Assembly: GCA_016860985.1 (NCBI GenBank)
Contig: BOKM01000001.1
Coordinates: 317,716 to 381,715 of the forward strand
Source: Patescibacteria group bacterium
GTDB lineage: Bacteria; Patescibacteriota; Dojkabacteria; GCA-002793355
Direction: 5' to 3'
DNA length: 64,000 nucleotides
Shown here: in pieces, positions 20,179 to 61,968 of the stretch
Numbering within the stretch: the first letter of the stretch is position 1
Layout of the letters: each line of letters begins with the position of its first letter
Notes under the pieces: model-generated
Seen by the model: only the letters and a program-made list of their open reading frames with translations
Database searches by the model: none
What the model was told of the DNA's origin: nothing
Position numbers and translations under genes: made by a program

Positions 20179-21981
20179 ATGACAGAGTTAGACAAGATTC
20201 GTAATTTTTGTATTATCGCGCATATTGATCACGGCAAGACGACCTTAACCGATAGAATACTTGAGTTAACATCAACCCATCACAAGCGGCAACTTGAACA
20301 ACAAGACCGTCTTACCGATGTTTTAGAAATAGAACAAGAAAGAGGAATTACAATTAAACTGCAGCCAGCAACGATGCCATGGAAAGGGCATCTCCTGAAC
20401 TTAATCGATACCCCAGGACATATTGACTTTACTTACGAAGTATCGCGATCGATGAAAGCCTGTGAAGGTGCACTCCTTTTAATTGATGTGACTCAAGGGG
20501 TTCAGGCACAAACCATTTCGAACATGTTGCTCGCAATGGAGGCAAATTTGGAAATAATCCCCGTGCTCAACAAAATAGACATTGGGGAACATCTTATAGA
20601 AGAGCGCCTAGAGGAGATTGAGCAAATACTCGGATTTAAACGCCACGAGGTCATTTTGGCATCGGGTAAATCTGGGCAAGGCGTTGCCGAAATGTTGGAC
20701 GAAGTAGTTTCGAAAGTTAAGCCTCCTACCGCCTCAGCAATACCTACTACACAAGCCCTTGTATTTGATTCAATATTCGATGAGCACAAGGGTATTATTG
20801 CCGCTATAAGGCTTTTTTCGGGAACAATCAAAAAGGGTGAACCGTACACCTTGATTAATACACAGACAAAGTTTATTGCAAAGAGTGTCGGCACCTTCTC
20901 CCCCAAAATGGTAGAAACTGAAGAGCTTACCGAAGGCATGGTTGGCTATATAGCAACAGGAATAAAAGATGTTAAGCAGGTACGTATTGGCGACACAATT
21001 GCACTCAAAGCGACAGACACTGCAATCTCAGGCTTTGATAAGCCAGCCCCAAAAGTATTTGCTTCACTTTACCCTGAAAATAAAGAAGATTATATTTTGC
21101 TTAAAGAGAGTATCCAAAAACTCTCCCTTAACGACGCTTCGTTGAGCATTCAAGAAGATTATTCCCCACTCCTTGGGCAAGGATACCGTGTTGGGTATTT
21201 AGGGCTGCTGCATCTTGAAATCACAAAAGAAAGATTAGAAAGAGAATTTTTAGTTGATACTGTTGTTACCGTACCAAGCGTCGAATACCATGCAACGTTA
21301 CATAACGGTGAAAAGATTCAGATTAAGTCTGCCTTTGATTTACCACCGTTGCCCTCAATAAAACTACTGGAAGAACCCTTTATCAAAGCGGAAATCCTAA
21401 CTCCAAGTGACACGATGTCATCCATATACGACATCATTATGGAATATAGAGGAGTCATAATGAATACGAAAGATACCTTTACTTCGCACGTGAGTAACTT
21501 GAATTACGTAACACTGGAAATTGATATGCCATATGCAGAACTGCTTAAGGGGTTCTTTTCCGTTATGAAGAGTGCAAGTCACGGTTATGCCTCGTTACAA
21601 TATGGGAACTTTACATACAAGCCAACCCAACTTGTGAAGGTTGATGTTCACGTGAATCATGATATTGTTCCTCCACTTTCGTTTCTTGAGATTCCTGAGC
21701 GCGCTAGGGACCGAGCCGTTTCAATGCTCGAGACACTAAAGAAATCTATTCCCCCACATATCTTCTCTATTCCACTACAAGCAATGGTTGGAGGAAAAGT
21801 ACTGGCACGAGAAGATGTTGCCGCTTACAAGAAAGACGTGACTGCGAAACTTTATGGTGGTGATATTACACGAAAAATGAAGCTTAGAAACAATCAGCAA
21901 AAGAAGAAACGCGAAATGAAAATTACTGGCAAAGTAAGAATTCCGAGCGAAGCCTTTATCAAGATTATCAACTCGAATTAA
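20179..21981 (+). CDS. lepA: elongation factor 4 (LepA)
   Basis: NFCIIAHIDHGKTTLTDRIL, DTPGHIDF, NKID, and LepA C-terminal domain. 600 aa. Confidence 0.9.
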   Translation: MTELDKIRNFCIIAHIDHGKTTLTDRILELTSTHHKRQLEQQDRLTDVLEIEQERGITIKLQPATMPWKGHLLNLIDTPGHIDFTYEVSRSMKACEGALLLIDVTQGVQAQTISNMLLAMEANLEIIPVLNKIDIGEHLIEERLEEIEQILGFKRHEVILASGKSGQGVAEMLDEVVSKVKPPTASAIPTTQALVFDSIFDEHKGIIAAIRLFSGTIKKGEPYTLINTQTKFIAKSVGTFSPKMVETEELTEGMVGYIATGIKDVKQVRIGDTIALKATDTAISGFDKPAPKVFASLYPENKEDYILLKESIQKLSLNDASLSIQEDYSPLLGQGYRVGYLGLLHLEITKERLEREFLVDTVVTVPSVEYHATLHNGEKIQIKSAFDLPPLPSIKLLEEPFIKAEILTPSDTMSSIYDIIMEYRGVIMNTKDTFTSHVSNLNYVTLEIDMPYAELLKGFFSVMKSASHGYASLQYGNFTYKPTQLVKVDVHVNHDIVPPLSFLEIPERARDRAVSMLETLKKSIPPHIFSIPLQAMVGGKVLAREDVAAYKKDVTAKLYGGDITRKMKLRNNQQKKKREMKITGKVRIPSEAFIKIINSN

Positions 21982-22592
21982 TCGAGCGACGTGAGTGAGG
22001 CGTAAAAAGCAACGACCGCAAGTGCAACATGTACATTGATGGATCCGCCTTTTCCATACATTGGTATCACCACCGCTCGATCAACTGCTGAGATTGTCTT
22101 TTTCGAGAGTCCGAACATTTCACTGCCCACCACAAATGCAATTTTTGTTGGGTAAGATATTTCTGTATACAATTGTGACTCTTCGCACTGTTCAATGGCA
22201 ACTACTTCGTATCCTTCTTTTTTAATTTCAGCAATCGCTTCTAAAGTCGACTCTCTATATTCCCACGAAACAACTTTCTCCTTTCCTCTTGATACTTTTG
22301 ATAAGTCTTTTCCAAACGGTGGGCGGTGAGATTCTCCTGTTAGGAATATCTTTTTTGCTTTTAACGCGTCTGCAATTCGGAACAAGCTCCCTACATTTCG
22401 GGCATAAGACATATTTTCGGCAATCAAAACTATCTCTCGCTGCTGCTTATATTGCTTATTGGTCTTTTTGACCGCTTTTGGTGAAAGTTTCGTCATCATA
22501 TCGTGAGAGTATACGAGGTGTTCCCCATGTTGTAAACTCTGAACGAAAAACTTTCGCAGGAGAAAACGTAAGTTGACGCTCTGCCTTAGCAA
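21978..22592 (-). CDS. SpoU/TrmH-family RNA 2'-O-methyltransferase (true start likely at internal Met near 22499)
   Basis: SPOUT motifs: VLIAENMSYARNVGSLFRIADA, VVGSEMFGLS, VVIPMYGKGGSINVHVALAVV. The first 31 codons overlap the upstream gene. Confidence 0.7.
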   Translation of the reverse strand: MLRQSVNLRFLLRKFFVQSLQHGEHLVYSHDMMTKLSPKAVKKTNKQYKQQREIVLIAENMSYARNVGSLFRIADALKAKKIFLTGESHRPPFGKDLSKVSRGKEKVVSWEYRESTLEAIAEIKKEGYEVVAIEQCEESQLYTEISYPTKIAFVVGSEMFGLSKKTISAVDRAVVIPMYGKGGSINVHVALAVVAFYASLTSLD

Positions 22593-23277
22593 TCATCAAT
22601 ACACCAGCAATGTAATCGAGCGCATCAAAAAATACATCCCAAACAGACTTCTTATGAGAAGCTGAGGTTGCATTCTTTATCACCTCTAGATTTCGGGTAT
22701 ACCAGGTCGGAAAATATTTTTCTATCCATTGGTTCTGCTCAAGCAGTAACCGATACTCTCCAATATCTTTAATGTAAAGAGGGATTGCATCTACAAATTG
22801 CATCGCATAAGACGCCGTTTCTTTTTTCAGATGTAGGGAATCAAGCGTTGAGTAGAAATTAAAACAAAGCTTATCGTTTACCCGCGACTCTTCAACTCCA
22901 TCACGTGCCAAACGACGTTTTCCGATTAATGTATAAAGAAAAAAATCAATTGCTCTTGTTAGCCAAATTCTCCTAGGATTTACGATAATCCATACATCGA
23001 TATCATCCTGTGGTTCAGCGTTAAGTGAGGCAACAGAACCTGTAATAAAGAGCATTCGTACCCAAGGAAGGTAGGTTAACCATTTTAAAACTTTTCTTGC
23101 CGCGTCGATTTTGGCCAATGAATATCTGACTTTCTTTTGCAAGGACTCATCCAGCTCATTTGTGCTAGATTCATTACCAATATAGCGTGGGTATTCAATT
23201 CTCGTGTACCTCCAGCAATCAACTGGCCATCCAAAAGAATGTTTAACCTCTTGAAGTATTTCAAATTCTCTAGTCAT
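22456..23277 (-). CDS. Pol-beta-superfamily nucleotidyltransferase-like protein
   Basis: GS-x(n)-DxD signature ITGSVASLNAEPQDDIDVWIIV followed by a helical C-terminal region. 273 aa. Confidence 0.4.
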   Translation of the reverse strand: MTREFEILQEVKHSFGWPVDCWRYTRIEYPRYIGNESSTNELDESLQKKVRYSLAKIDAARKVLKWLTYLPWVRMLFITGSVASLNAEPQDDIDVWIIVNPRRIWLTRAIDFFLYTLIGKRRLARDGVEESRVNDKLCFNFYSTLDSLHLKKETASYAMQFVDAIPLYIKDIGEYRLLLEQNQWIEKYFPTWYTRNLEVIKNATSASHKKSVWDVFFDALDYIAGVLMIAKAERQLTFSPAKVFRSEFTTWGTPRILSRYDDETFTKSGQKDQ

Positions 23278-23317: not shown

Positions 23318-24136
23318 ATGTATGAACACGCAATTCCACAGAACATCATGGAGTATGAGTTTGAGCTTTTTGCAGGCTTAACTCTCAAGCAATTTATCTA
23401 CGTCGCAGTATCGGGCGGGTTTGCCTTTGGTTTATACGAATTAAACAGAGCTGGCCTTTTTCCCGCTTTCTTTGCATGGATTACTATTCCAATAATCCTT
23501 TTGGTTGGCGTCACACTTGGCTTAGGCTCGTATCAAAAACGAACAATGGAAGATTGGTTCAATGCATTTGCCAAAGCAAATGCGCTAACCCTTCGCCGAG
23601 TATGGAAAAAAGATACAAAAGCAGTTACTCACGATAATTTTCATGCGACAAAACCGCACTCGCTTCCTTCGTACCTTGCGGTGTATTTTATGAACCAAGA
23701 CGAGTTTACGCGATTAATGCGCAACAAAGGGGCAATAGAGGATTCTCATGAACCTACCACTATCGTACAGCCACTTCTTCACGCAGAGAATATCCCAACC
23801 ATTCAAGAGGTTATTCAACTTACTCAAGCTAATGCCTCAGATTTTGCGGAACCTGGTGTAACGCTTCCAGCAATACCAAACACGATTGCCTTCAAGTTAC
23901 AAGAAGATAATCTTCCAATGGAAGGTGTAGTCGCCTATGTAAAAGATGCCAATATGAGCGTCGTCGGTGCGCTTCGAAGTAACAAAGATGGCATTGTTTA
24001 TTTTAATCAAGGATTTCAGAACGGAGATTACGAAATCGAATTTCAATCGCCAGAAGCTGCAACGTTTCCGAAAGTGAGAGTGCAATTTCAAGGTCTCACT
24101 TACCCACTTATTAATATATCACCAACAGGTTCATAA
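23318..24136 (+). CDS. VirB3/PrgI-like membrane protein with C-terminal extracytoplasmic domain (T4SS-like module)
   Basis: Two adjacent N-terminal TM helices (FIYVAVSGGFAFGLY and FFAWITIPIILLVGVTLGLG). Lies immediately upstream of the VirB4-like genes. Confidence 0.4.
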   Translation: MYEHAIPQNIMEYEFELFAGLTLKQFIYVAVSGGFAFGLYELNRAGLFPAFFAWITIPIILLVGVTLGLGSYQKRTMEDWFNAFAKANALTLRRVWKKDTKAVTHDNFHATKPHSLPSYLAVYFMNQDEFTRLMRNKGAIEDSHEPTTIVQPLLHAENIPTIQEVIQLTQANASDFAEPGVTLPAIPNTIAFKLQEDNLPMEGVVAYVKDANMSVVGALRSNKDGIVYFNQGFQNGDYEIEFQSPEAATFPKVRVQFQGLTYPLINISPTGS

Positions 24137-24138
24137 TT

Positions 24139-24768
24139 ATGGCACTCGGTCCAGGGCAAAGCCCCATAACTCAAGGTACGCAAGATATTCTTGAAGTAGC
24201 GGACATCATGAATGATTTGCTCATTACTCGAAATGGAACCGTTTGTTTAATCTTAAAAACTTCTTCAGTAAACTTTGACCTTTTATCCGAAGACGAGCAA
24301 GACATTAAAATTGCATCCTTCGGTTCTATGGTTAACTCACTCGACTTTCCTCTACAAATTCTTATTGAAACAAAGAAAATTAACATCAGTAAATATGCTG
24401 ACTTTCTAGATACAATGGACACTCCAGACCTTAGCCCCGGACTAAAGCGCCAATTTACGGTTTATAAACAGTTTATAAGAAACCTTATTACAAATAAGGA
24501 AATCCTCGATAAACGTTTTATGATTGTGATTCCCTATAGAACAGGTACCTCTGTTGCGCCAAACGCAACAATCGAGCAAAAACAGAAGCTAATCGAGAGC
24601 GCGACAGGCTATTTGTATCCAAAAAAATATCACGTGATAAAAATGTTAAAAGGCATGTCGCTTGAAGCTGAGCAGATGTCGAACAGCGAAATTGCCAAGT
24701 ATCTTTATTCAGTTTACAACCCAGCGGACTCAATCCGTTTAGATGATTTACCTCAAATATACGTATAA
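24139..24768 (+). CDS. VirB4 N-terminal-domain-like protein (first part of a split VirB4, or separate accessory)
   Basis: LLITRNGTVCLILKTSSVNFDLLSEDEQD resembles the N-terminal region of VirB4/TrbE ATPases. Its stop TAA is followed 1 nt later by the ATG (24770) of the ATPase gene. Confidence 0.45.
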   Translation: MALGPGQSPITQGTQDILEVADIMNDLLITRNGTVCLILKTSSVNFDLLSEDEQDIKIASFGSMVNSLDFPLQILIETKKINISKYADFLDTMDTPDLSPGLKRQFTVYKQFIRNLITNKEILDKRFMIVIPYRTGTSVAPNATIEQKQKLIESATGYLYPKKYHVIKMLKGMSLEAEQMSNSEIAKYLYSVYNPADSIRLDDLPQIYV

Positions 24769-26638
24769 TATGGCACTCCTCGACTTATTCAATAAAAAAA
24801 AACCAACTCAAACTGCAGAACAAGGAGCACAACCTCAAGTTGAGCAGCAGCAATCAGATCCAAACCCTGACTTTAGTATTCAGGACCTGCTTGCTCCGCA
24901 ATATTACGAGATTGATTTTAATCACGTGCAGATTAACAAGCGTTATTACAGAATTCTCATGATTACGGACTTTCCTCGTGTAGTCCGTTCTACATGGCTT
25001 TCTCCACTAGTAAACTTTGAATCTTCACTTGCAATCAGTACGTTCTACTACATCGTTGATTCAGACGAAGTTATTGATAAGCTCAAGAAAAAAATTGCAG
25101 AACTCGAAGCAACTCTTTCGACACAATACGAAAAAGGTGTAGTTCTTGATCCTAAGAGTAAAGTCGCCTATCAAGATGCCCAAGAACTTATCGACAATGT
25201 TGCATCAGGCAAGGAAAAATTCTTTAACATGGGAATGTATATTCGTCTTAATGCAGACGATCTTACAACACTTGAGAATATTTCTAAGAATGTTATCTCG
25301 ACACTCAAGGCAATCGGACTTTCTGCAGTCCCACTTACGCTAAAAATGCACGACGGATTCGATACAACACTTCCATATGCACTCGACAAAATATATCGTG
25401 TTCGAAACATGGATACGACCTCTATTGCAATGACCTTTCCCTTTGTTACGTCGGACCTTACCATGGACAGAGGAATTCTTTACGGCGTCAACATGCACAA
25501 CAACAGTATGGTTATTTTCGATAGGTTTAGCATGCCTAACCTAAACGAAGTAGTTTTCGCGACTTCTGGTGCAGGAAAGAGCTATTTTGTAAAACTTGAA
25601 GCCTTGAGATATTTGCTTACAGGTACGCAAGTGATGATTATCGACCCTGAAAACGAGTATGAAAAACTTGCTAAATCGGTAGATGGCGAATACATTACCT
25701 TTACTCAAGACGAAGGCGCAAAAATTAATCCCTTTGAGTTCCTAAAGTCTTCAAAAGATGGCGTAAGAAACGTCCTTCGCGACAAAGTATTAAGCCTCCA
25801 CTCGTTTATTAAATTACTCCTTGGAGAACTAACAAATGTCGAAGTTTCAATTCTCGACCGCGCCTTTATCCTTACGTATAACGAAAAAGGCATCAACAAC
25901 GACCCTGAAACATGGAATAACAAGCCACCACTGCTCGAAGATTTGTATAAGATTCTCAAAGGTATGGCAGAACCTGAGGCGCGAGCACTTTCAGGCCGGT
26001 TAGAAAAGTATGTTTTTGGAAGTGCTGCCGGCGTCTTTAACCAAGAGACAAATATCGACATCAAGAACAAATTTACAGTATTTAGCATTCGTGACCTTCA
26101 AGATGATCTCCGTCCAATCGCCATGTATATGGTGCTCGATTTCATCTGGACTCGAGTACGTGAAGATATAAGACCAAGAATCCTTGTTGTCGACGAAGCC
26201 TGGACCATGATGCAATACGAAGATTCCGCACGCTTTATTTACGGTATCGCAAAGCGAGGCCGAAAATATTACCTTGGGCTAACGACTATCAGTCAAGATG
26301 TTGATGAATTCTTAACGTCAAAATATGGAAAAGCGGTAGTAACCAACTCAAGCTTGTCGCTTCTACTTAAACAGAGCCCTGCTGCGGTTGATTTAGTCGT
26401 AAAAACCTTTAACCTCTCTTCCGGAGAGCGATCATTCGTATTGAGCGCTAAAACAGGAGAAGGGCTATTCTTTGCCGGAAGAAGCCATGTAGGAGTTTCA
26501 ATTATTGCAAGTAGAGCCGAACATAGACTTATCACCTCAAATCCAAAAGAACTCGCAAAAATGAAATCACAGAGTACAGAATTTTCTGAGGACGATATTT
26601 CAGAGGGAGCCTTAGTTTTTGAGCAAGGAAGTGAATGA
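24743..26638 (+). CDS. VirB4/TraE-like type IV secretion ATPase (probable true start ATG at 24770)
   Basis: Central VirB4 segment RYYRILMITDFPRVVRSTWLSPL; Walker A FATSGAGKSYF; Walker B ILVVDEAWTMM; sensor LTTISQ. Confidence 0.8.
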   Translation: MIYLKYTYNMALLDLFNKKKPTQTAEQGAQPQVEQQQSDPNPDFSIQDLLAPQYYEIDFNHVQINKRYYRILMITDFPRVVRSTWLSPLVNFESSLAISTFYYIVDSDEVIDKLKKKIAELEATLSTQYEKGVVLDPKSKVAYQDAQELIDNVASGKEKFFNMGMYIRLNADDLTTLENISKNVISTLKAIGLSAVPLTLKMHDGFDTTLPYALDKIYRVRNMDTTSIAMTFPFVTSDLTMDRGILYGVNMHNNSMVIFDRFSMPNLNEVVFATSGAGKSYFVKLEALRYLLTGTQVMIIDPENEYEKLAKSVDGEYITFTQDEGAKINPFEFLKSSKDGVRNVLRDKVLSLHSFIKLLLGELTNVEVSILDRAFILTYNEKGINNDPETWNNKPPLLEDLYKILKGMAEPEARALSGRLEKYVFGSAAGVFNQETNIDIKNKFTVFSIRDLQDDLRPIAMYMVLDFIWTRVREDIRPRILVVDEAWTMMQYEDSARFIYGIAKRGRKYYLGLTTISQDVDEFLTSKYGKAVVTNSSLSLLLKQSPAAVDLVVKTFNLSSGERSFVLSAKTGEGLFFAGRSHVGVSIIASRAEHRLITSNPKELAKMKSQSTEFSEDDISEGALVFEQGSE

Positions 26639-27477
26639 CCCCGCGAATCAAATTACAAGAGTTTGTTTTTATCGGTAGTCTTATTTGCGTTTCTGTTATT
26701 GGGATTGTTCTGCTCTCTTCACAAAAAGATTTAAGCTCAAAAGACTCACAAGCTGCAAGCGGAAATATATTCGACGTAACAGTACCGGCCAATCAACCAA
26801 CCAATACTCCTACTCCCTCAGTTACCAAAAGCGCAAAGGCTCAAGACGTGCCACTTAAAGTACTAGGCCGAAAAGAGATTGGAGAACAATCGTACTTGTA
26901 CACAGAGCTCGCAAGCAAAGGACTAATCTCAAATGTTGCTGCAGACAACGTTACCATACACTGGTTAACAGAAGCTCCACAACAAACAAAATTATATTAC
27001 GGAAAAAAGGAAAACCTACTCATTAAACAGTTTTCCGACTCAGATTACAGCTATATTCATACCGCTAAATTGGAAACACTTACCCCAAATACACTCTATT
27101 ATTACTCTGGTCACGCGCCAATTACCGAAAGCTTTGTTTCAGCTCCGCAACTTCCCGTTGCCCCAGCACTCTTAACCTTGCAAGGCACAATTTCGAAACA
27201 GGCCGGCGAATGTCTGATTCGCGCCATAATAAGCAATGAAAACAAAGCTTCTTCTTCAATGACTGCTGCATTTAAAGGGAGTGAATGGAAACTTGATTTG
27301 AAAGGGATTAGGAGCGCCGATTATTCTGCATATTACACACCTAATAGCAACGACTCCGTTGAGTTTGACGTACTTTGTATCGATAATAATAAATCCGTAT
27401 CTAGCGCCAAAAAGAAAGTTTTATACCGCCAAGCAGTGTCACAAACTACCAGTATTGTGCTTGTTAATGAGGATTGA
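26635..27477 (+). CDS. membrane-anchored secreted protein with FN3-like (purple-acid-phosphatase N-terminal type) domain
   Basis: N-terminal TM; VTIHWLTEAPQQTKLYYGKK...LTPNTLYYY pattern. Its start overlaps the VirB4 stop (ATGA). Confidence 0.45.
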   Translation: MTPRIKLQEFVFIGSLICVSVIGIVLLSSQKDLSSKDSQAASGNIFDVTVPANQPTNTPTPSVTKSAKAQDVPLKVLGRKEIGEQSYLYTELASKGLISNVAADNVTIHWLTEAPQQTKLYYGKKENLLIKQFSDSDYSYIHTAKLETLTPNTLYYYSGHAPITESFVSAPQLPVAPALLTLQGTISKQAGECLIRAIISNENKASSSMTAAFKGSEWKLDLKGIRSADYSAYYTPNSNDSVEFDVLCIDNNKSVSSAKKKVLYRQAVSQTTSIVLVNED

Positions 27478-27510
27478 GCGCGAATCGCAAATTTGGTATA
27501 ATACGCAGTT

Positions 27511-27597
27511 GGAGGGGTGGCCGAGTGGTTGATGGCGTCAGTCTTGAAAACTGATGTAGGGTTTTCCCTACCGTGAGTTCGAATCTCTCCCCCTCCG
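27511..27597 (+). tRNA. tRNA-Ser (anticodon TGA), class II with long variable arm
   Basis: Hand-folded: acceptor GGAGGGG/CCCCTCC, 3-bp D stem, anticodon stem TCAGT/ACTGA with loop CTTGAAA, 19-nt variable arm, T loop TTCGAAT (one U-U mismatch in T stem). No encoded CCA. Followed by a T-run. Confidence 0.85.
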
Positions 27598-27731
27598 TTT
27601 TTTTCTTGCTGTGACCTGAGCAAATTATCCTCCTTCCATTTATTCTCGGGCACTTAAACACCTTGATTCACCTTCAATACTCTGCTATAAAGACCTTCCA
27701 AGTGAATAATCTATAAAAAAAGCCCTATAAC

Positions 27732-37326: not shown

Positions 37327-38763
37327 TTAACTTAATTGAGAAAGTAATTTATTTTTTAAAAACAGTGATTTTTCTTCAAATCGCCCTGTGCCCGATTTCA
37401 ATTCAAATCTTATAGAAATTCGCTCAGCCACACCATCTCCTTTCTGGTCTAAAGTTGTTAGCACAACATCAACAGTGTTTCCCACTAATCCGTTGGGACC
37501 TGGGTTCTCAATAAACTCTACGCGATAACCAGGAATTTTATTTCTTCCTTTTTTCTTAGGTCCTCCAACATCCTTAAGCGAACAAATCTGTGCGTCTTCC
37601 TCAGGGTAATGCTCTACAACTGAAACTAAAGATTGAGTATCAGGCGAATTACTAACAATCTTTCGTGGAGTATGCGTAAAAAATGCACTTTTGCGATTTT
37701 CAGGAATCGTTGAGAGAAGTGCATGAAATGCGTCAAGAATATAGCCGTATGGAGTCTGGTCTTCAGCAACATTTCCTTTTTGTGCAACTTGATTACCGAT
37801 TTCGAGTATTCTTCCGTACATCTTGCCCACCTGTTCTTTGTGTGAGTCAACTTTTAATTTTCTAAGTGTATTTCCAGCAAGATATGGTTCGATAATTTTT
37901 CCAGTTTTTGACTTTAGGTCAAACTGAATACTGACCAAGCGAAGACTTGTTCTCTGATATTTCTCGTCCAATCTGTACGCATTTACTTGACACATTCCAT
38001 CGTTATTTCGTTCAATAACTTCATATTCGACAAAGTTATCACGAAATTTATTACGAGAAACACGAGTTTCGCCATCGACTTCATCAAAAGCATCAATAAA
38101 GTTACGCATTTTTACCATGTATCGCAACGCTTCTGCGATATCTGAATAAACAGATACATGCATTCCGGGGCCGTATTTTTTCAAAAACTCTTCTGATTCC
38201 TCTTCAATAGCTTTTCGGTCCAATATATTGGAGACAATACTCATAGTTTTTACATGCGTAGCATGTGGATCGACTTCCTCACTATGAGGTTCCGTTACAA
38301 AAACCACAAGATTGTCACTCGCCGTACTAACTGCATATGCAGTACCTGTTGAGGGAGCAGCTGTCAGCGAAAAGATTTTCACTCCAAATGAATCAACCCC
38401 TCGTTCTAATTCTTGTTCAAGTGATTGACCAGTAACATCATGTGCAACAACTGCATATTCCTTCTCGGTATCTTCGAATATATCAAACCTGTAGTCGTGC
38501 CCCTCAACGTGTGTAAAAAAAGTTGTTCTTCGATATCCCCTCCTTGGAACTTTCTTAGTTAACAGCACTTTTGGACTAATCTCATCGGGAGCAGCTAACA
38601 AGCGGTTAAATCCCTGCCTAAAGGATACGAGCGCAGTTTGAGTAATTGAATCTGTTGCACTTACATGGGTAACGGCCTCTTCTAATGCTAAAAACCTATG
38701 AACAGTCGCAATATCCAACATTGTTTCTCCATCCGAAACATTCGGCTGGGGCATATTTAGCAT
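37327..38763 (-). CDS. hypothetical protein (478 aa, soluble)
   Basis: Long ORF with good coding texture, 11 nt upstream of the 180-aa gene. No recognisable family. Confidence 0.45.
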   Translation of the reverse strand: MLNMPQPNVSDGETMLDIATVHRFLALEEAVTHVSATDSITQTALVSFRQGFNRLLAAPDEISPKVLLTKKVPRRGYRRTTFFTHVEGHDYRFDIFEDTEKEYAVVAHDVTGQSLEQELERGVDSFGVKIFSLTAAPSTGTAYAVSTASDNLVVFVTEPHSEEVDPHATHVKTMSIVSNILDRKAIEEESEEFLKKYGPGMHVSVYSDIAEALRYMVKMRNFIDAFDEVDGETRVSRNKFRDNFVEYEVIERNNDGMCQVNAYRLDEKYQRTSLRLVSIQFDLKSKTGKIIEPYLAGNTLRKLKVDSHKEQVGKMYGRILEIGNQVAQKGNVAEDQTPYGYILDAFHALLSTIPENRKSAFFTHTPRKIVSNSPDTQSLVSVVEHYPEEDAQICSLKDVGGPKKKGRNKIPGYRVEFIENPGPNGLVGNTVDVVLTTLDQKGDGVAERISIRFELKSGTGRFEEKSLFLKNKLLSQLS

Positions 38764-59284: not shown

Positions 59285-59749
59285 CTAGTCCATTCCTAAC
59301 AATTCGCGGACACCACTTGAAACATTAGAGAGTACATTACCGCCATTTCTGTATAATTCAGAAACAATCGCCACACTCAACAAGTCATTATCTTTTGGTG
59401 ATTGATAACCAACCTTTCTTTTTAGATTAGTCATCAATTGTTCTTCGTCTACACCATCACCAAATATACTGTTACGTCGAAGAGGTTCAGCACATACACT
59501 ATCCGCAGCTACACTATCCTGAACTGCGATTTTTAGCATATTCAATTTCCCAACATGCTTTAGTGCCTCTTGTACTTCCAAGGTTTGCAAACCAAATATC
59601 GCCCCCGAATCACGCTCTTTGAGTTTGGCAATTCGCTCAAGTTCAACTCCAAGAGCTCCTAAAGAAGCCACACCTTCTCTAAATTTTACTTCTCCAAGCG
59701 CTCTAAACGAGCTTTCCTCTGTGGGTTCACTTAAATGTGGTGTTGTCAT
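59285..59749 (-). CDS. hypothetical protein
   Basis: 154 aa, helical; no motif. Confidence 0.35.
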   Translation of the reverse strand: MTTPHLSEPTEESSFRALGEVKFREGVASLGALGVELERIAKLKERDSGAIFGLQTLEVQEALKHVGKLNMLKIAVQDSVAADSVCAEPLRRNSIFGDGVDEEQLMTNLKRKVGYQSPKDNDLLSVAIVSELYRNGGNVLSNVSSGVRELLGMD

Positions 59750-61119: not shown

Positions 61120-61492
61120 CTATACCCCAAATCAGGCAGTAACTCAATAAAGTTACCCAATAGCTTACAAGTGTAAATACATGCAAGACGAGCAAAAGTA
61201 TTGCCGCAACAGTTACTGTAAAAAAAGTAGTCCATACCCACGTTCCACTTTCTTCGCGCGATTCCTTTTTAACCCAAGAGACAATTGAACGAAAAAGTGA
61301 AGCAACAATAGCAAAAATAGCAGCTACGAGTAAGCTGACCAAGGAAATAACAATAAATATATTACCAATTTGGGGGACGCTATTTTGTGAATATGGAAGA
61401 AAATTGCCTGTTGCGAGCAGTGACCAGAAAAAATAACCGACTATCCCACCAACCGCACCAATAGAAGCAGTTGCCTGCTGCTGTGTAATCAT
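61043..61492 (-). CDS. small polytopic membrane protein
   Basis: Three or four hydrophobic helices. 3' end overlaps the next gene by 77 nt. Confidence 0.35.
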   Translation of the reverse strand: MITQQQATASIGAVGGIVGYFFWSLLATGNFLPYSQNSVPQIGNIFIVISLVSLLVAAIFAIVASLFRSIVSWVKKESREESGTWVWTTFFTVTVAAILLLVLHVFTLVSYWVTLLSYCLIWGIVEYGKYKARNRYKKYLEASSGAREK

Positions 61493-61968
61493 TAACGATT
61501 AAACAAGCTTATAAACTCTAGCCATGCAGCCTTCATGCCACCATGGCGCCTAATTTCGACGAGCGAAATGATCATAAGGAAAATGGTCAAAAAGGTTGAC
61601 ACGGTACACCATGAACAAAAAGCCTTAATAGGTACTATCTCTAGATATAAGAAATAAAGACTCGCAAGAATTCCAATCCCCGACATTTTCCATGTCGCAA
61701 TTCGCAAAATTGGGCGGTCATCAATCAACCGAAAAACAGTAATAAGCGCGTTCACACCATAAAAAGCGAGCCCATAGGCAGCAATTGGTACTGCAAAAAT
61801 CTTTGAGTATGGACTATGTAACACAATTTCACAGCCGCCGCCCGTAAGGCAACCAATAACTTTTTGGGTAATTGCGGTATGCCACATAAAAATTGACAGT
61901 GCCATTCCGGCAATATTAACGAATAGCATCCATTGCGTAAGTGTAGGCGTAACAAGCTTTATCTTCAT
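61492..61968 (-). CDS. vitamin K epoxide reductase (VKOR)-family membrane oxidoreductase
   Basis: Loop Cys pair CLTGGGC and TM-embedded CxxC (AFCSWCTVS), in a 4-5 TM scaffold of 158 aa. Adjacent to DsbA-like genes. Confidence 0.6.
   Translation of the reverse strand: MKIKLVTPTLTQWMLFVNIAGMALSIFMWHTAITQKVIGCLTGGGCEIVLHSPYSKIFAVPIAAYGLAFYGVNALITVFRLIDDRPILRIATWKMSGIGILASLYFLYLEIVPIKAFCSWCTVSTFLTIFLMIISLVEIRRHGGMKAAWLEFISLFNR

What the first reader, a model, noticed from the sequence alone, without database searches (positions are those of the whole stretch)
24139..26638. VirB4 ATPase appears to be encoded as two genes (209 aa N-domain plus about 620 aa ATPase) joined by TAAtATG
The 209-aa ORF carries the characteristic VirB4 N-terminal segment (LITRNGTVCLILKTSSVNFDLLSEDEQD). 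The 631-aa ORF carries the mid-domain and ATPase motifs. Summed, they match a canonical full-length VirB4 of about 830 aa. The junction is a stop codon followed one nucleotide later by ATG (24770). This looks like a natural split with translational coupling rather than a frameshift. Both genes begin with the same context TAAT(T)ATGGCACTC, encoding MAL. A genuine split VirB4 is uncommon. Alternatively it is a recent gene fission or pseudogenisation.
Basis: partly seen in the sequence, partly recalled or inferred. Interest (0 to 1): 0.55.

Follow-up and report, generated by a model that had tools for sequence, protein, structure and literature searches.

The report
Two-gene VirB4 ATPase (TrsD-like + ATPase)
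The secretion-system motor VirB4 really is encoded here as two adjacent genes, but this is the normal, already published arrangement in this group of ultra-small bacteria (Patescibacteria) and in some Gram-positive plasmids, not a rarity or a broken gene.

Summary
ORF1 (24139-24768, 209 aa) ends in TAA, and one base later ATG 24770 opens ORF2 (622 aa, to 26638). ORF2 is a VirB4 ATPase that lacks its first ~180 residues. ORF1 is homologous to exactly that missing N-terminal segment. Family members map to positions 9-175 of the CD1110-type VirB4 model, and ORF2 maps to 183-733. Both ORFs align colinearly to single-chain VirB4 proteins: 787 aa from a patescibacterium and 834 aa from a S. aureus plasmid. 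The predicted fold of ORF1 matches TrwK/VirB4 first.

The split is not a frameshift, pseudogene or assembly error. All 110 close homologues of ORF1 are stand-alone proteins. Six complete related loci show PrgI(VirB3)-ORF1-like-ATPase, a seventh shows PrgI-ORF1-like up to its contig end, and the junctions differ between loci.

The organism is a Candidatus Dojkabacteria (Patescibacteria). A 2025 paper already reports TrsD, a remote homologue of the VirB4 N-terminus, as the most abundant T4SS component in Patescibacteria, usually next to virB4. The same layout occurs in pGO1-type plasmids and in Bacillus and Paenibacillus plasmids.

Verdict: real, natural and ancient, but already known. Interest is low.

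The parts
23318..24136 (+). PrgI/VirB3-like membrane protein (272 aa). The PrgI domain covers residues 6-91 and is followed by a ~180-aa C-terminal extension. First gene of the mini-operon.
   Evidence: Pfam PF12666 PrgI, E 4.6e-11, 43.5 bits against a cut-off of 27. A PrgI gene lies directly upstream of the ORF1 homologue in all related loci read.
24139..24768 (+). ORF1: TrsD-like / TraC-like protein (209 aa), the detached N-terminal segment of VirB4.
24766..24772 (+). Junction TAA-T-ATG: the ORF1 stop codon, one base, then the ORF2 start codon (ORF2 is in the +1 frame).
   Evidence: Sequence read directly. No Shine-Dalgarno-like motif in the 22 nt upstream. Junction geometry differs in relatives: 8-nt overlap, or called gaps of 2, 11 and 493 nt.
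24770..26638 (+). ORF2: VirB4-type T4SS ATPase lacking the first ~180 residues (622 aa). It has an N-terminal LLDLFNKKK peptide, a Q/P-rich linker (residues ~1-40), the middle domain and the P-loop ATPase domain.
   Evidence: NCBIfam conju_CD1110, 363.9 bits against a cut-off of 325, model positions 183-733/752. Pfam P-loop_TraG, AAA_10, CagE_TrbE_VirB and DUF87, all above their cut-offs.
25568..25582 (+). Walker A motif GAGKS (ORF2 residues 267-271).
   Evidence: Read from the translation and the alignment.
26186..26203 (+). Walker B motif VVDEAW (ORF2 residues 473-478).
   Evidence: Read from the translation and the alignment.
26635..27477 (+). Downstream 280-aa gene whose ATG overlaps the ORF2 stop (ATGA). 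It encodes a membrane-anchored protein with an FN3-like domain. Probably the last gene of the operon; tRNA-Ser follows.
   Evidence: Sequence. Pfam Pur_ac_phosph_N, 30.8 bits against a cut-off of 30. The same gene is at the same place in the closed genome CP129470. tRNA-Ser lies at 27510-27598.

Best explanation
This is the chromosomal type IV secretion mini-operon of a Candidatus Dojkabacteria (Patescibacteria). Its gene order is PrgI/VirB3-like, TrsD-like, VirB4 ATPase, then a 280-aa membrane protein. VirB4 is encoded as two polypeptides. ORF1 (209 aa) is the equivalent of the first ~180 residues of a single-chain VirB4. ORF2 (622 aa) is everything else: the middle domain plus the Walker A/B ATPase domain. 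The split is old, is inherited across the phylum and is under selection. It is the pGO1-type TrsD/TrsE layout of monoderm (MPF-FATA) systems.

Inferred mechanism. The genes are co-transcribed. ORF1 and ORF2 have no Shine-Dalgarno motif and start 2 nt and 1 nt after the preceding stop codon, so they are probably translated by termination-reinitiation, which would yield roughly equimolar products. The TrsD-like subunit would then bind the ATPase non-covalently and, like the N-terminal domain of single-chain VirB4, dock the ATPase hexamer onto the VirB3/PrgI membrane subunit. This would energise a T4SS that has been co-opted for the epibiotic lifestyle rather than for conjugation.

Shown here: homology, colinearity, conservation and synteny. 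Inferred: coupling, complex formation and cellular role.
For: Complementary coverage of full-length VirB4 models:
- ORF1 family at conju_CD1110 9-175/752, ORF2 at 183-733.
- VirB4_plasma 99-286 for the ORF1 family, 292-879 for ORF2.
- TIGR00929 4-176 for one family member, 237-724 for ORF2.

Colinear alignment to fused proteins:
- P0351 (787 aa, found on 3 contigs from at least 2 samples, PrgI upstream): ORF1 10-194 aligns to 6-199 (E 1e-38) and ORF2 41-604 aligns to 213-776 at 51% identity.
- S. aureus plasmid CP030544 CDS (834 aa): ORF1 aligns to 48-246 (4e-12) and ORF2 to 262-807 (5e-39).

Conservation:
- 110 of 110 homologues found are stand-alone proteins; all but four, which look like fragments (114-160 aa), are 188-267 aa. 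They come from Dojkabacteria, WWE3, Parcubacteria, Portnoybacteria and others.
- A profile search of 1.84 billion representatives gives 4,667 hits. 148 of the best 150 are 200-488 aa with the domain at or near the N-terminus, and only one is fused.
- The order PrgI, TrsD-like, ATPase holds in six of six complete loci, including the closed genome CP129470, and the junctions differ.

The same split occurs in Paenibacillus and B. thuringiensis plasmids.

Literature: PMC12102498 reports TrsD as a remote homologue of the VirB4 N-terminus, with 2,272 homologues in Patescibacteria, 1,664 associated with VirB4, and the copy in Ca. S. epibionticum ML1 listed as essential.

The ORF2 start lacks a Shine-Dalgarno motif and sits 1 nt after the stop.
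Against: ORF1 alone scores far below the curated cut-offs (24.7 bits against 200 for TrsD, 25.8 against 590 for VirB4_plasma), so the homology is remote and rests on family-level and fused-protein evidence.

No physical interaction, expression or coupling data exist for this locus. No VirB6, VirB8, VirD4 or pilin gene was found among the window ORFs scanned, so the rest of the machine must be encoded elsewhere.
Confidence: 0.9

Rival explanations
1. Recent gene fission or pseudogenisation: a frameshift or nonsense mutation broke a single virB4 gene in this lineage.
For: ORF2 is in the +1 frame relative to ORF1 and starts 1 nt after its stop, which taken alone looks like a single-base indel. 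Fused relatives do exist.
Against: Every one of 110 close homologues is a stand-alone protein. The split is present in six of six complete related loci, down to 27-42% identity, with different junction geometries. ORF1 shows strong purifying conservation, with 10 invariant columns across 31 sequences. ORF2 has its own conserved N-terminal peptide and linker. The only patescibacterial fused form nests among split forms in a rough NJ tree.
Confidence: 0.02
2. Assembly or sequencing error at the junction created an artificial stop codon.
For: None specific. The A/T-rich junction could in principle hide an indel.
Against: Independent assemblies from NCBI, ENA, JGI and Logan all show two genes, including a closed 888-kb genome.
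Confidence: 0.01
3. Programmed frameshifting or readthrough at TAA-T-ATG produces a full-length fused VirB4 in addition to, or instead of, the two separate proteins.
For: The frames differ by +1 and the gap is 1 nt.
Against: There is no conserved junction. Relatives have an 8-nt overlap, or called gaps of 2, 11 or 493 nt, which leaves no conserved slippery site. ORF2 keeps a conserved start-proximal peptide immediately after its ATG.
Confidence: 0.02
4. The TrsD-like protein descends from the VirB4 N-terminus but now acts independently, for example as a regulator, assembly chaperone or adaptor with a different stoichiometry, rather than simply rebuilding a two-chain VirB4.
For: Many family members carry long, variable C-terminal tails (lengths up to 488 aa). 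[quoted passage not shown] One 597-aa member has the domain but no ATPase part.
Against: Adjacency to the ATPase is tight and conserved in every locus read here. Fused forms with the same domain order exist in two phyla, which is the classic sign of physically interacting partners.
Confidence: 0.12

Closest known systems
TrsD plus VirB4 pairs of the patescibacterial T4SS (Quinonero-Coronel et al. 2025, PMC12102498)
   Same: Same phylum. Same order PrgI/VirB3, TrsD-like, VirB4. Chromosomal, with no relaxase or coupling protein nearby. TrsD is described there as a remote homologue of the VirB4 N-terminal portion. Homologues of ORF1 come from Dojkabacteria, WWE3, Parcubacteria and others.
   Different: Nothing essential; this locus is one more instance. 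Added here: explicit complementary model coordinates, fused "Rosetta-stone" proteins, and a fold match to TrwK.
TrsD/TrsE of staphylococcal pGO1/pSK41 and TraD/TraE of pIP501 (MPF-FATA, pGO1 subclass)
   Same: A ~200-aa protein encoded directly upstream of a ~650-700-aa VirB4-like ATPase and downstream of a VirB3-like gene. ORF1 aligns to almost the whole TrsD model (15-200/201), and all 31 family members hit it. The gene order traC-traD-traE in pIP501 is taken from PMC4981023 and from my own knowledge.
   Different: ORF1 scores 24.7 bits against the curated cut-off of 200, so it is a distant relative and not a member of that NCBIfam subfamily. The plasmid systems are conjugative and have a relaxase and a coupling protein. 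I could not fetch the pGO1 or pSK41 records.
Single-chain VirB4 ATPases (TrwK of R388, CD1110 family, TraC of F, Mycoplasma ICE VirB4)
   Same: ORF1 plus ORF2 together cover the full models colinearly. The ATPase motifs are present. The ORF1 fold matches TrwK first.
   Different: Two polypeptides instead of one. ORF2 has an extra N-terminal lysine-rich peptide and a flexible linker that are absent from the patescibacterial fused form P0351.
Split VirB4 in Bacillus cereus-group and Paenibacillus plasmids
   Same: PrgI, then a ~290-300-aa protein matching ORF1, then a ~680-700-aa ATPase. The ATPase starts with the same kind of peptide (MKLFGKKKK.., MFKRLKKK..).
   Different: Plasmid-borne. About 25-28% identity to ORF1. 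The records annotate these genes only as hypothetical proteins.
VirB3-VirB4 fusions, and the two-part coupling protein TraI/TraJ of pIP501
   Same: Both show that T4SS ATPase modules are repeatedly fused and split at domain borders (PMC12102498; PMC4981023).
   Different: Different borders and different partners are involved.

Membership tests
VirB4-type T4SS ATPase (ORF2) | Scores above the curated threshold of a VirB4 family model | tested here: met
   NCBIfam conju_CD1110, 363.9 bits against a cut-off of 325, E 1.7e-108. Pfam P-loop_TraG 86.4 against 25.8, AAA_10 39 against 27.5, CagE_TrbE_VirB 34.6 against 21.
VirB4-type T4SS ATPase (ORF2) | Walker A and Walker B nucleotide-binding motifs | tested here: met
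   GAGKS at residues 267-271 and VVDEAW at 473-478, conserved in the alignment to P0217 and P0351.
VirB4-type T4SS ATPase (ORF2) | Full-length architecture including the first ~180 residues | tested here: not met
   ORF2 starts at model position 183/752 (CD1110), 292/894 (VirB4_plasma) and 237/792 (TIGR00929). The missing part is supplied by ORF1.
VirB4 N-terminal segment (ORF1) | Significant sequence similarity to the N-terminus of single-chain VirB4, colinear with ORF2 | tested here: met
   E 1e-38 to P0351 residues 6-199. E 4e-12 to the S. aureus 834-aa protein, residues 48-246. Family members map to CD1110 9-175, VirB4_plasma 99-286 and TIGR00929 4-176.
VirB4 N-terminal segment (ORF1) | Same fold as the N-terminal domain of a solved VirB4 | tested here: inconclusive
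TrsD/TraD family (NCBIfam NF041427) | Scores above the curated cut-off of 200 bits | tested here: not met
   24.7 bits, E 1.7e-5, covering model positions 15-200/201. The best family member reaches E 3.9e-13 and 49.7 bits. ORF1 is a remote homologue, not a member of this subfamily.
TrsD/TraD family (NCBIfam NF041427) | Stand-alone ~200-aa protein encoded between a VirB3-like gene and a VirB4-like ATPase gene | tested here: met
   Window gene order, and the same order in six related complete loci.
Pfam PF26593 TraC-like | Match to the Pfam model | not testable with these tools
   The local Pfam copy returned nothing for ORF1 or for its relatives under this accession. Precomputed annotation lists PF26593 for 108 of 110 homologues, marked weak for the closest orthologue. 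7 of 31 members hit PF11130 TraC_F_IV.
Patescibacterial T4SS (Quinonero-Coronel 2025) | Chromosomal virB4 of the Patescibacteria clade with TrsD and PrgI/VirB3 adjacent and no relaxase nearby | tested here: met
   Housekeeping neighbours lepA, a SpoU methylase and tRNA-Ser. No relaxase or VirD4 was found among the ORFs scanned. The nearest homologues are Dojkabacteria. Clade membership of ORF2 was not tested with the authors' own phylogeny; only a rough NJ tree was made.
Patescibacterial T4SS (Quinonero-Coronel 2025) | Location near the replication origin (dnaA) | tested here: inconclusive
   No dnaA or dnaN was seen among the window ORFs scanned. dnaN lies next to the cluster in three other loci (L004, L005, L012).

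The most novel reading that the evidence does not exclude
The split may be functionally exploited rather than neutral. Split VirB4 ATPases in two phyla begin with a short hydrophobic, lysine-rich peptide followed by a flexible charged or Q-rich linker: Patescibacteria MALLDLFNKKK and MKLLNFFNKDKKK, Bacillota MKLFGKKKK and MFKRLKKK. The re-fused patescibacterial form P0351 lacks this peptide. This could be an undescribed tether that docks the ATPase onto the TrsD-like subunit, PrgI or the membrane. Such a tether would allow regulated or sub-stoichiometric attachment of the N-terminal module.
Probability: 0.12. Interest if true: 0.4.

Novelty: already known. Interest (0 to 1): 0.15.

Why it matters
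The patescibacterial T4SS is of current interest because its genes, including the TrsD homologue, are listed as essential for epibiotic growth in the one genetically tractable species (cited in PMC12102498 and PMC12857230). Knowing that VirB4 there is a two-chain enzyme matters for annotation, because ORF1-type genes are mostly labelled hypothetical. It also matters for structural work on the monoderm T4SS. This particular locus adds nothing new in principle. It is a clean example, and the fused relatives found here give a simple argument that the two products work together.

Tried and rejected
- A profile search of PDB sequences with the ORF1 family found no VirB4, only a chance hit at E 0.098.
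- I first took the ~807-aa Dojkabacteria ATPases (for example P0217) for fused forms. They are not. The extra length is N- and C-terminal extension, and a TraC-like gene sits upstream.
- Fetching pSK41 (AF051917) and pGO1 (FM207042) failed because neither record is in the plasmid collection. No direct comparison with the prototype TrsD was therefore made; only the NCBIfam TrsD model was used.
- Guglielmini 2014 (PMC4027160), the source cited for the TrsD/VirB4 N-terminus homology, does not mention TrsD in its main text. The statement is presumably in its figures or supplements.
- The search for the phrase "split VirB4" found no paper.
- The promoter and terminator scan inside the operon gave nothing beyond chance.
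- The 597-aa family member P0350 has no ATPase part.
- The shared ATGGCACTC start context was rejected as coincidence.
Full report
**What is there.** ORF1 runs from 24139 to 24768 (209 aa) and ends in TAA at 24766-24768. After a single T, ATG 24770 opens ORF2, which runs to 26638 (622 aa). The mechanical ORF list starts ORF2 at an upstream ATG (24743, 631 aa). Three observations favour 24770 instead. The 97%-identical homologue P0111 begins MALLDLF. The orthologue in a closed Dojkabacteria genome begins MKLLNFFNKDKKK two bases after the upstream stop. That genome has no earlier in-frame ATG.

**The neighbourhood is a four-gene, tightly packed unit.**
- A PrgI/VirB3-like gene lies at 23318-24136 (Pfam PrgI, E 4.6e-11).
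- ORF1 starts 2 nt after the PrgI stop.
- ORF2 starts 1 nt after the ORF1 stop.
- A 280-aa membrane protein gene has its ATG overlapping the ORF2 stop (ATGA).
- tRNA-Ser follows.

The flanks are housekeeping genes: lepA, a SpoU methylase, and rpoB/rpoC further away (rpoB/rpoC inferred from the 1,149- and 1,292-aa ORF sizes alone, not scanned). The closest homologues are all from Candidatus Dojkabacteria (WS6), a class of Patescibacteria/CPR.

**What the two ORFs are.** ORF2 is a VirB4-type ATPase by curated thresholds: NCBIfam conju_CD1110 at 363.9 bits against a cut-off of 325, and Pfam P-loop_TraG, AAA_10 and CagE_TrbE_VirB all above cut-off. It has Walker A GAGKS (residues 267-271) and Walker B VVDEAW (473-478). 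However, it begins at position 183 of the 752-position CD1110 model, 292 of 894 in the Mycoplasma ICE VirB4 model, and 237 of 792 in TIGR00929.

ORF1 alone gives only weak hits, to VirB4_plasma positions 106-279 (2e-6) and to the TrsD/TraD model positions 15-200 of 201 (1.7e-5). At family level the signal is robust:
- All 31 aligned homologues hit both models.
- 24 hit conju_CD1110.
- 6 hit the canonical VirB4_CagE model.
- 7 hit Pfam TraC_F_IV.

In the ten members scanned individually the hits lie in the N-terminal part of each model: CD1110 9-175, VirB4_plasma 99-286, TIGR00929 4-176. The two ORFs thus tile the full-length models without overlap.

**Rosetta-stone test.** Two single-chain proteins contain both parts in the same order.
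- P0351 is a 787-aa patescibacterial protein seen on three contigs from at least two samples, with PrgI upstream. It aligns to ORF1 residues 10-194 at its positions 6-199 (E 1e-38, 34% identity). It aligns to ORF2 residues 41-604 at positions 213-776 (51% identity).
- An 834-aa CDS on S. aureus plasmid CP030544 aligns to ORF1 at 48-246 (4e-12) and to ORF2 at 262-807 (5e-39).

**Is the split real and old?** Yes.
- All 110 homologues of ORF1 in the 5.8-billion-protein collection are stand-alone proteins; all but four short entries (114-160 aa), which look like fragments, are 188-267 aa.
- A profile search of 1.84 billion cluster representatives gives 4,667 hits at E <= 1e-3 and 2,606 at E <= 1e-10. 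Among the best 150, 148 are 200-488 aa with the domain at or near the N-terminus, one is the fused P0351, and one is a 597-aa protein without an ATPase part.
- Six complete related loci show PrgI, TrsD-like, ATPase. These include the closed genome CP129470 (76% identity), a WWE3 contig and loci at 27-42% identity. A seventh contig ends after the TrsD-like gene.
- The junction differs between loci: an 8-nt overlap, or called gaps of 2, 11 and 493 nt. No conserved frameshift site exists.
- The ~807-aa Dojkabacteria ATPases that I first took for fused forms are also split. Their extra length is terminal extension.
- In a rough NJ tree of the ATPase cores, P0351 nests among split patescibacterial sequences, next to the WWE3 locus. 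It is most simply a secondary re-fusion (no bootstrap support was computed).

Pseudogenisation, recent fission, assembly error and programmed frameshifting are therefore all very unlikely.

**Is it known?** Yes. Quinonero-Coronel et al. 2025 (PMC12102498) make four relevant points:
- They found 2,272 homologues in 2,221 assemblies, of which 1,664 were associated with VirB4.
- TrsD occurs otherwise only in the pGO1 subclass of MPF-FATA.
- The copy in Ca. Southlakia epibionticum ML1 is listed as essential.

My plasmid search adds that the same layout is common in Bacillota plasmids. There were 410 matching records, 324 of them from Bacillus. In Paenibacillus pY5S7-1 and a B. thuringiensis plasmid the order is PrgI, a ~300-aa ORF1-like protein, then a ~690-aa ATPase. 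The locus is an ordinary member of a described arrangement.

**How it most likely works.**
- Shown: the two genes encode complementary parts of VirB4, are always adjacent, and follow a VirB3-like gene.
- Inferred from the arrangement: they are co-transcribed, since no promoter or terminator signal beyond chance lies inside the unit.
- Inferred from sequence context: ORF1 and ORF2 have no usable Shine-Dalgarno motif and start 2 nt and 1 nt after the preceding stop codon. This fits termination-reinitiation coupling, which would give matched amounts of the two chains.
- Inferred from established knowledge of R388 TrwK, where the VirB4 N-terminal domain contacts VirB3 at the membrane (PDB entries 8RTB and 7O41, by their titles, and my own knowledge): the TrsD-like chain probably bridges PrgI and the ATPase hexamer.

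An independent regulatory or adaptor role for the TrsD-like protein cannot be excluded. Many relatives have long variable tails, and the paper notes Gracilibacteria TrsD homologues as the exception to the association with VirB4.

**Minor points of the finding.** The identical start context (TAAT(T)ATGGCACTC, MAL) is real in this window. In the closest complete genome the two starts read ATGGCAGTC and ATGAAATTG, so I treat the shared context as coincidence.

**Verdict.** The interpretation as a natural split is supported, but the rarity claim is not. The feature is already known, so interest is low (0.15). One small loose end may be worth a look: split ATPases in two phyla carry a conserved hydrophobic, lysine-rich N-terminal peptide plus a linker, and the re-fused patescibacterial form lacks them.

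Noticed in passing
whole window; examples 12165, 28034, 37327-38763(-), 59285-59749(-), 61492-61968(-): A -10-like hexamer (TATAAT with at most one mismatch) ends exactly 5 nt before the start codon in 11 of 56 genes, and within 3-9 nt in 16 of 56 (about 1.5 expected). Only 12 of 56 genes have any Shine-Dalgarno-like motif of 4 nt or more. This suggests widespread leaderless mRNAs in this Dojkabacteria genome. The PrgI-like gene has TGcTACACT ending 8 nt upstream of its ATG.
   Followed up: partly
window 24770-24890 (ORF2 residues 1-40); L001 6633-; L009 4677-; L010 4753-; L008 2399-: Split VirB4 ATPases start with a short hydrophobic, lysine-rich peptide followed by a charged or Q-rich linker: MALLDLFNKKK.., MKLLNFFNKDKKK.., MFKRLKKK.., MKLFGKKKKEKKK... 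The fused S. aureus protein has MKKLFKKEKQ.. at its own N-terminus, ahead of the TrsD-like domain. The fused patescibacterial P0351 has none. This could be a tether or membrane-binding peptide.
   Followed up: partly
window 22456-23277 (-): A divergently transcribed 272-aa gene with a nucleotidyltransferase-like motif (GSVASLNAEPQDDIDVWII) sits directly upstream of the PrgI gene here and in Dojkabacteria loci L001, L003 (30% identity, 3e-25) and L011 (27% identity, 2e-15), although the other flanks differ. Pfam gives only a sub-threshold Adenyl_cycl_N hit. It may be a lineage-specific partner of the T4SS mini-operon.
   Followed up: partly
window 23318-24136: The PrgI/VirB3-like protein has its PrgI domain only at residues 6-91, followed by a ~180-aa extension with a sub-threshold SdrD_B/Ig-like hit. 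PrgI-family proteins upstream of TrsD-like genes range from 134 to 691 aa in relatives, and one carries a CarboxypepD_reg domain.
   Followed up: no
window 26635-27477: A 280-aa gene overlaps the VirB4 stop (ATGA) and has a good AAGGA Shine-Dalgarno motif. It has an N-terminal hydrophobic segment and an FN3-like Pur_ac_phosph_N domain at threshold. It is conserved at the same place in CP129470 but not in more distant loci.
   Followed up: no
L012 4001-6364 and L013 877-3240 (protein P0351): A single-chain 787-aa VirB4 (TrsD-like domain joined directly to the ATPase core, no linker) occurs in a patescibacterium related to the WWE3-type loci. It was seen in independent samples. In a rough NJ tree it nests among split forms, which suggests re-fusion.
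   Followed up: partly
window 21978-22592 (-) and 22456-23277 (-): The listed TTG start of the SpoU methylase ORF overlaps the upstream gene by 137 nt. The orthologue in CP129470 is called at 180 aa, so the true start is probably an internal ATG.
   Followed up: no
L007 (GCA_038998185.1, labelled Candidatus Aenigmatarchaeota): A PrgI plus TraC-like pair very similar to patescibacterial ones lies on a 5-kb contig binned as a DPANN archaeon. This could be a binning error or a transfer between episymbiont lineages.
   Followed up: no
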